Shown here: in pieces, positions 6,001-42,500 of the stretch
How positions within the stretch are numbered: the first letter of the stretch is position 1
Layout: the number at the start of each line of letters is the position of its first letter
Assembly: GCF_011386835.1 (NCBI RefSeq)
Contig: NC_088792.1
Span: 167,834,001 to 167,898,000, forward strand
From: Chrysemys picta bellii
Taxonomy: Eukaryota
Direction: 5' to 3'
DNA length: 64,000 nt
Position numbers: made by a program

Positions 6001-9000
6001 AAGGTAATTGGCCGCTGAGTTCCTAGTTATTAAACAGACTTCAGAAACACTGATGAATAGGCCAGCTCCAAGAGCTAAAATGTATAGCATTTTTATGCTT
6101 GCACCTCCCACATGACTAAGATGTATTTGGCTGGAGTGAACTTAAACTTGACATTTTTCATGATAAGGATTGCACACAAGTGATCCCTCACCCACTAGTG
6201 CAGGGGTGGCCAACCTTAGCCTGAGAAGGAGCCAGAATTTACCAATGTACATTGCCAAAGAGCCACAGTAATAAGTCAGCAGCTCCAGCGCCTCCCGCCC
6301 ACTGGTGCCTCCCCCTCCCTATCAGCCGTTTCGTGACATGCAGGAGGCTCGGGGGGAGGGGAGAGGGAGCAGTGAGGGCATGGCAGGCTCAGGGGAGGGG
6401 GCGGGAAGGGTGGAGTGGGGGCAGGGCCTGTGGCAGAGCCAGGGGTTGAGCAGTGAGCACCCCCCAGCATGTTGGAAATTTGGCGCCTATAGCTCCAGCC
6501 CGGGAGTCGGTGCCTATATAAGGAGCCACATATTAACTTCTGCAAAAAGAACAGGAGTACTTGTGGCACCTTAGAGACTAACAAATTTATTAGAGCATAA
6601 GCTTTCGTGGACTACAGCCCAGAAGAGCTGCACGTGGCTCCAGAGCCACAGGTTGGCCACCCCTACCCTAGTGTATACTTCCAGTGTGGCTGATTATTAA
6701 GTTGTTATTATTATTTTTAAAGAAGTGGTAGCGGTAGAAACCCAACTCAGTAGTATAGAACAACCCCCTCCCTCCAAATCACAATTTCTTGTTAAAGCAA
6801 AGCTACAATTCAAATTTGCAGTAAAACAAAATTAATAAAATCATATGAGAAGGAGCTTCTGATCCTCTTCTGTATTTATAATTCAGACAACCTAGACAAA
6901 TGTTGCTGATTCTGAAGTTGGCAATGTAGTTGACCGTCCATTCAGCTGGCCATTGTTTAAAGGGCATTTGACACTGAGTTACATAGGGCCCAGTCCTGCA
7001 AGACACTGAGCCTCCTTTGCTCCCATAAGCATCCATAAGAATCAAGGGTGCTCAGACCCTTACAAGTTTGGACTTTTATGTGATGATGTAGCTGGAATGC
7101 TGACTGGATTCTTTGTCCTCTTCTACCATAGAGAAATTGGAACATTTTCAACCAGCTCTAATGTTGACATTCAGAGTCCTGTCAGTGGCATAACTTACAA
7201 GTGATATTTGATGAAGTTTACCACAGTATATACTGTGTAGTAGTGGATAGTGCAGTTTAGGCTGCAAACTACTGCTGTGCTAACCTCCTGTTTTTACTCA
7301 CAGCTTTCTGAAACAATAAGCTTTTTAAACTGAAGTTTTTATGCTTGATACGGTCCTAAAACCATGGAAACTATCATATAAATATACACCACACAAGATC
7401 TAGATACGTAGGTGGATAGATAAAGTCTGTATTATGCTAACTGGATGAAATAAATAGTTAACTTTCTAAAACACAATCTTAAGAAAACGATGGTAAACAG
7501 AAGGTGTTTACATCCAGGAGACTAGGGTAATACATTTATCAAGAAAGAAAACCCAAAGATAAGGTAAAAGAAAACAAATATGCTGAACAAAATTGGGATG
7601 ATTTAAAAAACGAAATCTATGATAAAAAAAATATCTGTATGCTAATCCTAATGTTTTCAAATGGAACAACAGTATGGAGAGGAAAAAATCCACATTTAAA
7701 AAGAAGTGTGCAGCAAACAAAAATAATTATGAATGGAAAGATCATCATGAAATAAGAAGCAGATTGAATGTGTGTGTTCTTTAACAGTGAGGAATTTGTC
7801 AGTGTAAAGTTACGTTCAGCAGTGTGACTATTATAATTAAAGAATATGTCTACTTAGGCAAGATGTTTAAAGCCATCTTGTTAACACAGAGATAACCTGT
7901 TAAAATACTTATTATAATGAGAGAAAATTGTACTTTTCCTCTACTTTCAGCTTCCTTTGAATGGTCTAATACATTTAATTGCTCATGTCTCTTCCAGGGA
8001 ATGTTTGCTAGTGTCACTATTGATGTAAATACCAAGATGATGGGTGTCTTAGGGCTTAGAAAACACTAGACACACAGAAAACAAGCCTATATGCTTCAAG
8101 CCAGTGGATGTTTGGTTATTAGTTTGAATAGGAGTCAGACCAGACATGAGAAAGATGAGTAGATCTCTAGTTTGCCATGAAATATGCAAAGCAAGGCAAA
8201 CATCTTTCACACCTCTAAATTTTGGAAATCGTTTAAGATTGACTTATAGTTACAAACACATCATATTACTGCATTATAGCATGGATAAAGATATGTTGTT
8301 GTCAGATTCATTTGATAGCAAACAAACAATTATAACTGTTTTGCAGCTATTAAAATTGTTTGTAACCATAAGTCAATCTTAAATGATTTCCAAAATTTAG
8401 AGGTGTGAAAGATTTTTGCCTTGCTTTGCATATTTCATGGCAAACTAGAGATCTACTCATCTCTCTCATTTCTGGTCTGGTCTGACTCCTATTCAAACTA
8501 ATAACCAAACATCCACTGGCTTGAAGCATATAGGCTTGTTTTCTGTGTATCTAGTGTTTCTAAGCCCTAAGACACCCATCATCTTGGTATTTACATCAAT
8601 AGTGACACTAGCAAACATTCCCTGGAAGAGACATGAGCAATTAAATGTATTAGACCAATAACTTTCAAAAAAGTCTTGACCATGACTGGCCCTGATCTTG
8701 CAATACTTGCATATAAGGATATTTCTGCAGGAATGGTCCCAATGCAACTACTTATATGCATAAGTATTTGTAGGATTTGGGTCTAAAAGGTGAATTACTA
8801 TGAAAAGGTTTGAGGAGAATCTGTTCAGTCATTTTTGAATTATGCAAGGCTTAAACAAACAAAAAACCCACTTTTCTTTCCCTACAGATGGCTGAACTTT
8901 GAAACATTGCAGTTAAACATTGAGGTGTATGTCCATAATAAAAACCTGAGAAGAATTTGCTAGTTAGTAATAAATTTATAAGCAACTGAGAAGTCACGTC

Positions 9001-39500: not shown

Positions 39501-42500
39501 TGCCAGCTAAGTCCTGAATGCAAAAGCTAATGATAAATGAGGCAGAAAGAACACCGTTTCATTTTCTGATCCAAGGTGGGGCTGTACCTGGTCTAGCTTC
39601 CTCTCAGGAATCCTTGACAAGTCAGCAGACCGTGGGGGCTTGTATTTTGATCTCCCTCCTCAGAGCTTAGATCATTCCCATCAGAGTAAGTGCCTGCTCC
39701 TGATGCTTGTTGATCAGCTGTTCAGCCAGAGGTGGAAAAGACATCCCACAACCAGCTGAAAGTCATGATTCTAGTAAAGGAAGATCTATTCACCTGCTGC
39801 AGTATTGCTCCAACTAGGATAATCAGCATTCATGAAAAGTGCTCCCAACTAGGCTATATAGGAGTCAGCCAAATGGAGTGAGTGGTCGGGGGGGGGGGGA
39901 GATAAAGAAGCCAGGATAGAGGAGAGCTAGGAAGAAAGGAGGAAGAAGGAATCAAGAGGAGAGAGAATGAGAAGGAAGTTAGAGATGAAGACAGGGGGAG
40001 CAAACAAATGGTACAAAAATTTAGAGTTGGGAAAGAGAAGTTACCCATAGACAGAACAAAAACTGAAAAGACTAAAGATGAGAAAGGGGACAAGAACAAA
40101 AGAAAAATCCAAGGGAAACGTTAAGCTTTTTTGTTAATAGAGTCATAAGGTTGTGGAAGAAACCTATCTATATAAATGCACATTGTATATGTGGATAGAG
40201 CAGGGGCAGGTTCTATATACTGCCCTTTGAACTGTAAGTTCTGATATCAAGCCCACACAAATCCCAATAGCCCTCTTCTCCCCAGTGTAGAATTCAGGTA
40301 AATGTCATTGACTTCCATCCTGTACGGGGAAAGAATAGGACTGCAGGATGAGTTTGCAGAGTGGCAGTCACAAAAAAAGCCTCTTTGGACCCATAAACCA
40401 AGCGAGTCTGATGTGGAGTCACTGAGAGAGAATAAATGTGGAGGGCCAGAATGTTATTTTTAGAGTTACTTTTCTGTCTGGAACTGGCAATTTACTATAC
40501 TTACTGTGGCAAAGCATGGAAATGACACATGATATATAAATGTCATTGATTCCGTGTCCCTGGGCTGTTCAGAAGTGGCCTTTCACACATCCTTTGAGTG
40601 CCAGAGCTGCTCACACCCTTGTCGTTGAACAATTAGCCAAGAGGCATGAAAGAGCAGCCATTTGTTATCAGACATAGTTGTGTGTTTGAGTAAGGGTAAA
40701 GGATAGAAATAGCTGAATGGCTACAGACAAGGTAACCAGGCAGTTTTAGTGAACAATTAAATTTGACTGGTGTGGATAAATGAAGATTAACAAACTTATT
40801 TTTATTTAGCATATTTTATCTCAAAGGGTGTGAGCCTTAACTGGTGACCTGCAAAGGTGAAAAAAAATAGGGTAAAATGTTTTGCTTCTTTATGCTGTAT
40901 AAAGACAACAATCACACAGTGTGTGTAATAGGGGAGAATTTGGCTCGTATTTTATGTTAGAAATTCTATTGTGTCTACTCTGTATTTCTGGGTAACTACA
41001 GATGGCTGGGGAACTGGTTGGACTTTGACATAAGAGACATCAGACACATGAAAACTGATTTAACTGGGAGGAAAAAATGGTTTTACTCAGATTATTTGAA
41101 AACCTCTTTTTTGTTTAACCTCTATTTAACTCAAACACCTGAATAAAAAGCTAGGAGAAAAGCTGTCTACATTAAAGATTCCACACCTCTGCCCCTTCAT
41201 TTATCTGTATATGCTACAAGATCATCATTATAGGAGGAGAGTGGTTTTGTGGGCAAAAGGGCGGGGATCACTTGGGATTGAAGTGGGAGAGGGGAAAGGA
41301 ATCTTGAAGTAAAAGAGAAAAACAGAGGAAGGAGTCAGAAAGGGGAAAGAATATTGAGAGTGAGGCTGGGTAGCTAAAGGTGGAGGTGGTAGGAGAGGGG
41401 CAAGATGAAGGGAAACCCAATCCCCAATGGTAACACAACAAACATGGGGAAAATATATCCAGACTCCAAATTTCAGAGTTGATTTTACCAGGAGGCTGTG
41501 AAGCCTCCTCCCAGCTGCTGTTACTGAGCCCTCTATCCCGGGTAGGCCCATCTGGGTCCAGTGGAGGAGAGGTCAAGGGAAACTGGAAGACCTTAATTTA
41601 TCTCTAGCTGCTAACTGGCCGGGGCTGCTTTTGGAAAGGAACACAGAGGTGGTCCTTCCAAGAACATGCAAAGACATATGAGATAGGTAGGAGGAAGTAT
41701 GAACTGCCTCTAACCATGCTTTGCCTATTCCATGAATCAATCAAATACGTAGGATGAAATCCTGCCCAGGGATTTTGCCACTGAATTCAGTGAGTCAGGA
41801 ATGGATTCCCCCTCATTCTCTGGGTCTGTCAATGCGCCATCATTGAGGAGCAGTAAATTCACTTTTAAGATAAAGGTCTAAGTGTGAGAGAGGGGAACAG
41901 TAGGGCTCAGGGAGCAGGAAGGACATTATAGACTAGTTTGGGTCCAGATTTTCACAAGAGCTCAGCATCCACCATCAGGGGCAGGTTTTGGTGACGAGGT
42001 GGGAGTTAAGCACTTTTAAAAACCTGCCCCAATGGTGGATGCTGAGCTCTTGTGAAAATCTGGCTGTTAGTGTCACAATTTCAGCTGCCTAGTGCTGGTT
42101 ATTATTATGGTTTGTATTGTGGAGCCCTAGGCATGTACCAGGACCTCCTTGTGCTAGGCATTGTACAAACATACTGTCCCTGCCCCAAAGAGCTTACAAT
42201 CTAAATACTTTTGAAAATATGTTCTGTATTTAGGCGCCTGAAAGAGCACGGAGCTCTTTTTGAAGTTGGGCCCCAGTTTTGTGTGCTGAGCACTTGACAA
42301 TGAGCCCTCCTAAACTTTCATATCGCACAGGTTGTAATTTTGCAAGTGCTAAGTACACCCAATTCCCATTGACATCAGTGGGTGTTGCTTGTATGTGGTG
42401 TCTGTATGCTCAGCTCCACAGTTCTTGTTATCCAGTTACTGCACGTCTGTGTTTCATTCCTGTATAGTCAAGAAATGAAGACTTAAAAAAACAAAAGTCT

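What the first reader, a model, noticed from the sequence alone, without database searches (positions are those of the whole stretch)
7962..42063. Recurrent short-range inverted templated duplications: four independent events in 34 kb
Four segments are inverted copies of sequence lying within 0.03-1.5 kb: about 297 bp (7962/8357), 88 bp (18556/20120), 117 bp (22397/23105) and about 45 bp (41944/42019). None has a TSD or poly(A) tail, and no other copy was seen in the window. Three sit in hairpin- or cruciform-prone sites (two MITE palindromes, one (TA)n tract). Seen: the duplications and their context. Inference: they are scars of break repair or template switching (Pol theta-mediated templated insertion, FoSTeS/MMBIR, or foldback) seeded by the many palindromic MITEs. 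This could be an under-described mutational process in turtle genomes. Each event would also form dsRNA in the CDH6 pre-mRNA.
Basis: partly seen in the sequence, partly recalled or inferred. Interest (0 to 1): 0.65.

Follow-up and report, generated by a model that had tools for sequence, protein, structure and literature searches.

The report
Nearby inverted copies from DNA repair
Four stretches of this non-coding region are back-to-front copies of DNA lying close by; at least two look like patches made when a broken or stalled DNA strand copied a neighbouring stretch, which is a known kind of mutation.

Summary
All four inverted pairs exist at the stated coordinates and are far beyond chance. 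None has a third copy in the window, a target-site duplication above the null, or an A/T tail.

- **Event 3 is the clearest.** A 117-120 nt copy sits inside the window's only long (TA)n tract. Its source, 591 nt away, is 72 nt of ordinary flank plus part of a small MITE-like palindrome, so it is not a transposon unit.
- **Event 2** is an 88 nt, 100 % identical copy inside a strongly hairpin-forming MITE-like element. Its source lies 1.5 kb away.
- **Event 1** is a 297/301 nt inverted duplication around a 98 nt spacer that is not itself palindromic.
- **Event 4** is a 120 nt hairpin that I cannot tell apart from the roughly 20 other small palindromes in the window.

The best reading is short-range inverted template switching or fold-back repair. 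This class is already described in humans, apes and yeast. The events here are long, and two have distant templates. Genome-wide copy number, orthologues, reads and the CDH6 assignment could not be checked. Verdict: real, partly as interpreted, modest novelty.

The parts
7962..8258 (.). Event 1, left arm (297 nt)
   Evidence: Reverse complement of 8357-8657 with 5 substitutions and 2 indels. No third copy in the window.
8259..8356 (.). Event 1, spacer (98 nt)
   Evidence: Similarity between the arms drops sharply here. Self-complementarity is not significant: 200 of 2000 shuffles reach the observed score.
8357..8657 (.). Event 1, right arm (301 nt)
   Evidence: A possible 6-nt extension (8664-8669 pairing with 7956-7961) follows 6 unmatched nt.
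18526..18876 (.). MITE-like hairpin element that hosts the event 2 copy
   Evidence: Its 16-nt terminal motif recurs at 51322 and 51978. TIR-like ends match 12 of 15; 145 of 5000 shuffles do as well. The piece 18644-18880 folds at -68.7 kcal/mol, z -10.8.
18556..18643 (.). Event 2, inserted copy (88 nt)
   Evidence: 88 of 88 identical to the reverse complement of 20120-20207, with sharp ends on both sides.
20120..20207 (.). Event 2, probable source
   Evidence: The flanks show no likeness to the host element.
22378..22393 (.). Left remnant of the (TA)n tract split by event 3
   Evidence: Read directly. Base 22394 fits both the tract and the copy.
22394..22513 (.). Event 3, inserted copy (117-120 nt)
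   Evidence: 116 of 120 identical to the reverse complement of 23105-23224. Flanked on both sides by (TA)n.
22514..22564 (.). Right part of the (TA)n tract
   Evidence: TRF reports 22509-22564, period 2, 28.5 copies. It is the only dinucleotide array among the 9 rows for the window.
23105..23224 (.). Event 3, source
   Evidence: It runs from non-repeat flank into the MITE-like palindrome. Family relatives align across its right end.
23177..23251 (.). MITE-like palindrome that holds one end of the event 3 source
   Evidence: Relatives at 2375-2459 and 37611-37699. The central stem is predicted.
41944..42063 (.). Event 4: 120-nt hairpin (arms 46 and 45 nt, spacer 28 nt)
   Evidence: DNA fold -54.6 kcal/mol, z -13.8. 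Origin open.
32279..32403 (.).
   Evidence: Arms match 43 of 46, spacer 33 nt. DNA fold -40.5 kcal/mol, z -12.3.

Best explanation
At least events 2 and 3, and probably event 1, are not transposon insertions. They are inverted copies of neighbouring DNA, written in when a 3' end at a break or stalled fork left its template. That end primed on nearby DNA in reverse-complement orientation, copied 88-300 nt, and was then joined back. This is a switch-and-return, or fold-back, event.

- Event 3: the break lay in a tract of about 34 TA units, which can form a cruciform. The copy began or ended at a short A/T-rich site 0.6 kb away and at the central stem of a small palindrome. Each junction shares about 1 nt.
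- Event 2: the break lay just inside the end of a strongly hairpin-forming MITE-like element, and the source is 1.5 kb away.
- Event 1: the copy lies next to its source across a 98-nt loop, as in fold-back priming.

Shown: the sequence relations, the polarity of event 3, the absence of transposon hallmarks, and the differing ages. Inferred: the break or stall, the enzymes, and the direction of synthesis.
For: - **Pairs are real and beyond chance**.
- **Event 3 polarity.** The copy is flanked by (TA)n on both sides, in the only long TA tract of the window. The source continues without a break into a palindrome whose relatives (2375-2459, 37611-37699) align across the end of the copied segment. 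The copied unit is therefore flank plus a partial element.
- **Event 3 age.** At 22396 the copy keeps the base seen in the relatives while the source has changed. Two of the 4 mismatches are at CpG. The event is old and real, not an assembly slip.
- **Event 2.** Both ends of the 88-nt match are sharp. The copy lies 7-13 nt inside the TIR-like end of an element whose remainder folds at z -10.8.
- **Site test.** Structure-prone DNA covers 4.6 % of the window. Both of the 2 polarised insertion sites falling inside it has P of about 0.002. This is post hoc, and the event 2 site counts only because its whole host element was added to the structure-prone set.
- **No transposon hallmarks.** No TSD above the null and no A/T tail.
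- **Orientation bias.** Within 3 kb there are 26 inverted against 4 direct HSPs at E up to 0.01. No direct pair above 93 % lies outside a multi-copy element.
- **The class is known.** Human template-switch events reach 318 bp (PMC9435742 passages). Inverted insertions with a nearby template define MMB-TIs (PMC8421209 passages). TA repeats extrude cruciforms, break, and are repaired by Pol theta MMEJ (PMC13645644 passages).
Against: - No genome of the source species or its relatives could be searched. Genome-wide copy number of the arms is therefore unknown, and no event is polarised by an outgroup.
- In-window copy number is a weak test. About 20 other palindromes are also single-locus here, and only 4 of 210 pairs among 21 palindromes show any likeness.
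- Event 2 polarity rests on the element's ends and fold, not on an uninterrupted relative.
- Event 3 junction homology is only about 1 nt, less than expected for microhomology-driven pathways.
- The sources of events 2 and 3 lie 591 and 1476 nt away. The MMB-TI tool looks within 100 bp, and the short-read filter of PMC9435742 allowed 250 bp.
- Event 4 and 32279-32403 may be plain palindromic elements.
Confidence: 0.62

Rival explanations
1. Events 1 and 4 (and 32279-32403) are single palindromic transposable elements, either MITEs or foldback-type. Their two arms are the element's own inverted repeats, so they are not local duplications.
For: - The window is full of small palindromes of many ages: 26 inverted HSPs within 3 kb.
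- Recognised family members such as 23177-23251 are barely detectable against their relatives, so a lone copy in 64 kb is expected.
- Event 4 has the size and shape of such elements.
Against: - No TSD above the null for either structure.
- No relative in the window.
- The arms end sharply and the spacers are unrelated and non-palindromic.
- The 297-nt arms of event 1 at 98 % substitution identity would be unusual for an element with no second copy in 64 kb.
Confidence: 0.3
2. Event 2 is filler DNA from abortive gap repair. The break was made when the MITE-like element was cut by a transposase, not by hairpin fragility, and repair synthesis switched to nearby DNA.
For: - The insert lies 7-13 nt inside the TIR-like end of the element.
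- Template switching that remodels DNA transposons is described for MITE origin (PMC3814204, search listing only).
- The Ac/Ds literature on this point is recalled, not read here.
Against: - Nothing in the sequence tells a transposase cut from a structural break.
- The rest of the element is one of the strongest hairpins in the window.
Confidence: 0.15
3. The pairs are two independent insertions of one repeat family in opposite orientation, or the long terminal repeats of larger elements spanning 18556-20207 and 22394-23224.
For: Opposite-orientation copies of a multi-copy element do occur nearby, for example 5831-5909 with 6543-6621.
Against: - The event 3 unit is flank plus a partial palindrome, not a family unit.
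- The host element of event 2 continues directly after the 88-nt insert, so the insert cannot be the left end of a 1.65-kb element.
- No TSD for either pair taken as one element.
- No third copy.
Confidence: 0.05
4. Assembly artefact: inverted chimeric reads or polishing errors.
For: Event 2 is 100 % identical over 88 nt. Palindromic artefacts of long-read libraries are known (recalled).
Against: - Events 1, 3 and 4 carry substitutions, including CpG transitions, and indels between the arms.
- All four lie inside a contig with unique sequence running on both sides.
- An 88-nt inverted patch is much shorter than a read.
Confidence: 0.04

Closest known systems
Short-range template-switch mutations (four-point model; Loytynoja & Goldman 2017, PMC5453318; Loytynoja 2022, PMC9435742)
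   Same: A segment is replaced or inserted as the reverse complement of nearby sequence. This creates inverted repeats and hairpins. Event types 1-4-3-2 and 3-2-1-4 create an inverted repeat (passages). Events up to 318 bp are reported (passages).
   Different: Those studies polarise events with an outgroup or haplotypes, which I could not do. Most reported events are tens of bases long and very close to their template. Here the copies are 88-300 nt, and two sources lie 0.6 and 1.5 kb away.
MMBIR-type templated insertions (MMB-TI; PMC8421209)
   Same: An insertion lying near its template and in inverted orientation to it. Such insertions are also found as germline variants (passages).
   Different: The signature includes microhomology at both junctions and a template within 100 bp. 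Event 3 has about 1 nt at each junction, and events 2 and 3 have distant templates.
Fold-back inverted insertions at double-strand breaks in yeast (PMC11724301) and large fold-back inverted duplications in humans (PMC3907307)
   Same: An inverted duplication beside its source across a short spacer, as in events 1 and 4. One end is extended by synthesis and the other is captured by end joining (abstract).
   Different: The yeast events are mostly 5-34 bp (abstract). The human ones are large and sit at chromosome ends (title and start of abstract only). Event 1 is 300 nt and interstitial.
Fragile (TA)n / AT repeats repaired by Pol theta end joining (PMC13645644; PMC12972899)
   Same: A long TA tract as the site of breakage, through cruciform extrusion and cleavage (passages; start of abstract only for PMC12972899). 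The two parts of the tract at event 3 sum to about 34 units.
   Different: Those data come from cancer ecDNA and yeast reporters. Here there is one fixed germline event, and no enzyme can be inferred.
Palindromic MITEs, for example Made1 / mir-548 in humans (PMC1784062)
   Same: Short elements that fold into near-perfect hairpins, like event 4 and 32279-32403 (search listing only).
   Different: MITEs are multi-copy and flanked by TSDs. No TSD was found, and copy number could not be tested beyond the window.

Membership tests
Template-switch mutation (four-point model) | The new segment is the reverse complement of nearby sequence | tested here: met
   All four pairs.
Template-switch mutation (four-point model) | A single switch-and-return event explains the difference from the ancestral sequence | not testable with these tools
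   No orthologous or ancestral sequence is available. Polarity is inferred from context only, for event 3 and event 2.
Template-switch mutation (four-point model) | Short range (the short-read filter in PMC9435742 allowed up to 250 bp) | tested here: inconclusive
   Spacers are 98 nt (event 1) and 28 nt (event 4), but 591 nt (event 3) and 1476 nt (event 2).
MMBIR templated insertion (MMB-TI) | An inverted insertion with its template within 100 bp | tested here: not met
   Met for events 1 and 4. Not met for the two polarised events, 2 and 3.
MMBIR templated insertion (MMB-TI) | Microhomology at both junctions | tested here: inconclusive
   Event 3 has about 1 nt at each junction (read). The junctions of event 2 cannot be set without the uninterrupted host element.
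MITE / TIR DNA transposon | Target-site duplication flanking the element | tested here: not met
   Best abutting exact repeats are 0-5 nt with 4 nt of slack, within the null of 1500 random units. The match at event 3 is the TA tract.
MITE / TIR DNA transposon | Many dispersed copies with the same ends | tested here: inconclusive
   No further copy in 64 kb. The same is true of most other palindromes here. No genome-wide search was possible.
Retroposed copy (SINE, LINE or processed transcript) | A-rich tail and TSD | tested here: not met
   No A or T run of 8 or more within 20 nt of any end, and no TSD. No tRNA-like part.
Known RNA family (miRNA precursor) | A score at or above the Rfam gathering threshold | tested here: not met
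   0 matches at gathering thresholds in the whole window. Event 4 gives 21 sub-threshold matches, mostly to unrelated miRNA-precursor models and several on both strands (best 50 bits against 116.6). Event 1 gives 5. This is a generic hairpin effect.

The most novel reading that the evidence does not exclude
In this lineage, hairpin-forming MITEs and long TA tracts would be hotspots for unusually long (about 90-300 nt) and long-range (up to 1.5 kb) inverted templated insertions. These would be fixed at a density of several per 100 kb. That would be a lineage-specific, structure-driven template-switch process that keeps creating long dsRNA-forming inverted repeats inside introns.
Probability: 0.15. 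Interest if true: 0.55.

Novelty: new member of a known kind. Interest (0 to 1): 0.3.

Why it matters
If such events are common, part of what repeat annotation calls palindromic elements or unexplained inverted repeats in reptile genomes would instead be repair scars. MITEs and TA tracts would then shape local mutation beyond their own insertion. Each event also creates a long potential double-stranded RNA if it is transcribed: event 1 gives about 300 paired bases. That bears on RNA editing and on hairpin and miRNA birth, a link already drawn for template switching (PMC8794818 and bioRxiv 10.1101/2023.04.19.537475, search listing only). On the present evidence these are a few good examples of a known mutation class, not a new process.

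Tried and rejected
- **Gene context.** A regex for cadherin-type motifs over 792 open frames, followed by Pfam on the 10 longest or motif-bearing frames, gave no cadherin domain and only one sub-threshold unrelated hit. CDH6 stays unverified.
- **RNA families.** Rfam at gathering thresholds and a tRNA scan of the whole window gave nothing. Rfam at E up to 1 on events 4 and 1 gave only generic hairpin matches.
- **Event 4 family search.** A degenerate pattern from the arm of event 4 gave 4 matches against 1.47 expected. Two are the arms themselves and the rest are not convincing.
- **A seed for event 1.** An old palindrome in its spacer was tested and rejected.
- **Event 2 copy as part of a repeat family.** An nhmmer hit suggested that the repeat family left of the host element extends into the 88-nt copy. 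The alignment shows that the family ends near 18480, so this was rejected.
- **Text search.** Three short motifs from the window found only primer lists. Turtle plus template switching gave 3 papers: one vertebrate TE review, not opened, and two unrelated antibody papers. Turtle plus MITE plus palindromic gave nothing specific.
- **Collections not used.** The phage, plasmid and E. coli collections were not used for the same reason.
- The supplementary figures of PMC9435742 and PMC5453318 with event-length distributions were not seen.
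Full report
**1. Observation**

| Event | Left segment | Right segment | Match | Gap between |
|---|---|---|---|---|
| 1 | 7962-8258 (297 nt) | 8357-8657 (301 nt) | 5 substitutions, indels of 1 and 5 nt | 98 nt |
| 2 | 18556-18643 | 20120-20207 | 88 of 88 | 1476 nt |
| 3 | 22394-22513 | 23105-23224 | 116 of 120 (114 of 117 from 22397) | 591 nt |
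| 4 | 41944-41989 | 42019-42063 | 44 of 46 columns | 28 nt |

- In event 1, similarity collapses in the 98 nt between the arms.
- In event 2, the match stops sharply at both ends.
- In 30 dinucleotide-preserving shuffles of the window, 0 or 1 inverted HSP of 40 nt or more within 3 kb appeared. The real sequence gave 16 rows, some overlapping.
- No third copy of any arm turns up in the window with blastn-short (E up to 1) or nhmmer (E up to 10).
- No abutting direct repeat exceeds what 1500 random units give, and no A or T run of 8 or more lies near any end. The 12-nt 'repeat' at event 3 is the TA tract.

**2. Event 3**

- **Insertion site.** The left copy is flanked by (AT)8 on its left and about 25 AT units on its right. 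TRF finds this as the only dinucleotide array among its 9 rows for the window. The copy therefore splits one tract of about 34 units.
- **Source.** The right-hand segment runs from 72 nt of sequence with no relative in the window into a roughly 75-nt palindrome at 23177-23251. That palindrome has relatives at 2375-2459 and 37611-37699, and they align across the right end of the copied segment.
- **Consequence.** The copied unit is flank plus 48 nt of a small element. This fixes the polarity (right is the source, left is the insert) and excludes a transposon insertion.
- **Junctions.** The source ends inside the 3' arm of the palindrome's central stem. Each junction shares about 1 nt with the TA tract (read).
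- **Age.** Two of the 4 mismatches are at CpG. At 22396 the copy keeps the base seen in the relatives while the source has changed. The event is old and real.

**3. Event 2**

- The left copy lies in an element at about 18526-18876.
  - Its 16-nt terminal motif recurs at 51322 and 51978.
  - Its ends are TIR-like: 12 of 15 match, and 145 of 5000 shuffles do as well.
  - The piece to the right of the insert folds at -68.7 kcal/mol, z -10.8.
- The insert begins 7-13 nt inside the left end.
- The element continues directly after the insert, so the 88 nt cannot be the left terminal repeat of a larger 1.65-kb element.
- The right-hand segment (20120-20207) has flanks with no likeness to the element.
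- Polarity (right is the source) is likely but not proven, because no uninterrupted relative of the element is in the window. I did not excise the insert to model one.

**4. Events 1 and 4**

- **Event 1** is a 696-nt near-palindrome.
  - Its spacer is not significantly self-complementary: 200 of 2000 shuffles reach the score. A seeding palindrome is therefore not supported.
  - The 5 substitutions are not clearly clustered. One lies in the outer 184 nt and four in the inner 113 nt; my hand calculation gives a binomial tail of about 0.07.
  - Six more bases may pair beyond the arms after 6 unmatched nt.
- **Event 4** is a 120-nt hairpin (DNA fold z -13.8) with an unrelated spacer.
- **Weakness of the copy-number test.** At E up to 0.01 the window holds 26 inverted HSPs within 3 kb against 4 direct ones, and about 20 small palindromes of 66-100 % arm identity. 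Nearly all hit only themselves. Among 21 palindromes, 4 of 210 pairs show any likeness. 'No other copy in the window' therefore cannot exclude a transposable element for events 1 and 4.

**5. Mechanism**

The best-supported reading is short-range inverted template switching: a 3' end at a break or stalled fork primes on nearby DNA in reverse-complement orientation, copies a stretch, and is rejoined.

- For event 3, a TA tract of this length is a known cruciform-forming, break-prone sequence, and such breaks are repaired by Pol theta-dependent MMEJ (PMC13645644, passages).
- Structure-prone DNA covers 4.6 % of the window. Both polarised insertion sites falling inside it has P of about 0.002. 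The test is post hoc, has n = 2, and counts the event 2 site only because the whole host element was added to the set.
- Fold-back priming from the right-hand break end and inter-strand switching at a fork both predict the observed arrangement. Sequence alone cannot separate them or name a polymerase.
- For event 2, a transposase-made break with filler synthesis is a variant that I cannot exclude.

**6. Comparison with what is known**

- In human haplotype assemblies, 3049-3934 such patterns per individual were found, the longest 318 bp (PMC9435742, passages).
- MMB-TIs are defined as inverted insertions with a template within 100 bp and junction microhomology, and they occur as germline variants (PMC8421209, passages).
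- Yeast fold-back insertions at breaks are mostly 5-34 bp (PMC11724301, abstract).
- The present events belong to this class. They sit at its long end, and events 2 and 3 have templates farther away than those tools search.
- Of the 3 papers that combine turtle and template switching, one is a vertebrate TE review that I did not open and two are unrelated antibody papers. That is one full-text search of an open-access library, not proof of absence.

**7. What stays open**

- No eukaryotic genome collection was available, so genome-wide copy number, orthologues and reads are unchecked.
- The turtle origin and the CDH6 assignment were not verified. No cadherin domain was found in the 10 frames tested out of 792.
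- The dsRNA inference holds in principle on whichever strand is transcribed. Event 1 folds at -540.7 kcal/mol as RNA, z -42.7 on 20 shuffles.

**8. Verdict**

- These are new examples of a known mutation class.
- Interest is modest unless a genome-wide census shows an unusual rate or a real MITE and TA-tract enrichment.

Noticed in passing
Weaker symmetry continues a few bases beyond the arms after a 3-nt indel.
   Followed up: partly
window 5502-5908, with 6543-6621, 33851-33921, 38629-38717 and 54002-54203: A 407-nt palindromic arrangement (about 91 %) of a multi-copy element whose pieces recur at four other places in both orientations at 92-99 %. It is clearly a repeat family and serves as a control for what a true multi-copy element looks like here.
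   Followed up: partly
window 18410-18480, 14994-15080, 63214-63398, 46759-46955, 42100-42211, 56607-56671, 28760-28836: A dispersed repeat family with a conserved core that ends in an A/T-rich stretch. One copy lies just left of the host element of event 2, and one lies 36 nt right of event 4. It overlaps neither duplicated segment.
   Followed up: partly
window 51322-51993: A composite of elements that share the terminal motif of the event 2 host element, with 66-73-nt inverted arms at 85-88 % (51335-51407 and 51897-51969) and a G+C-rich interior.
   Followed up: partly
window 47500-49300: The most G+C-rich stretch of the window (0.49-0.53 in 2-kb bins). It holds a poly(A) run, an 83-nt tandem repeat (49071-49243) and the longest open frames. 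None of those frames has a Pfam match.
   Followed up: no
window 20081-20126: A predicted local hairpin whose 3' arm holds the left end (20120) of the event 2 source. The event 3 source also ends in a hairpin arm. The fold of the whole 171-nt stretch is not better than shuffles (z -1.0), so this may be chance.
   Followed up: partly
window 53688-53785: A short young-looking inverted pair: 27 nt, 96 %, 44-nt spacer.
   Followed up: no
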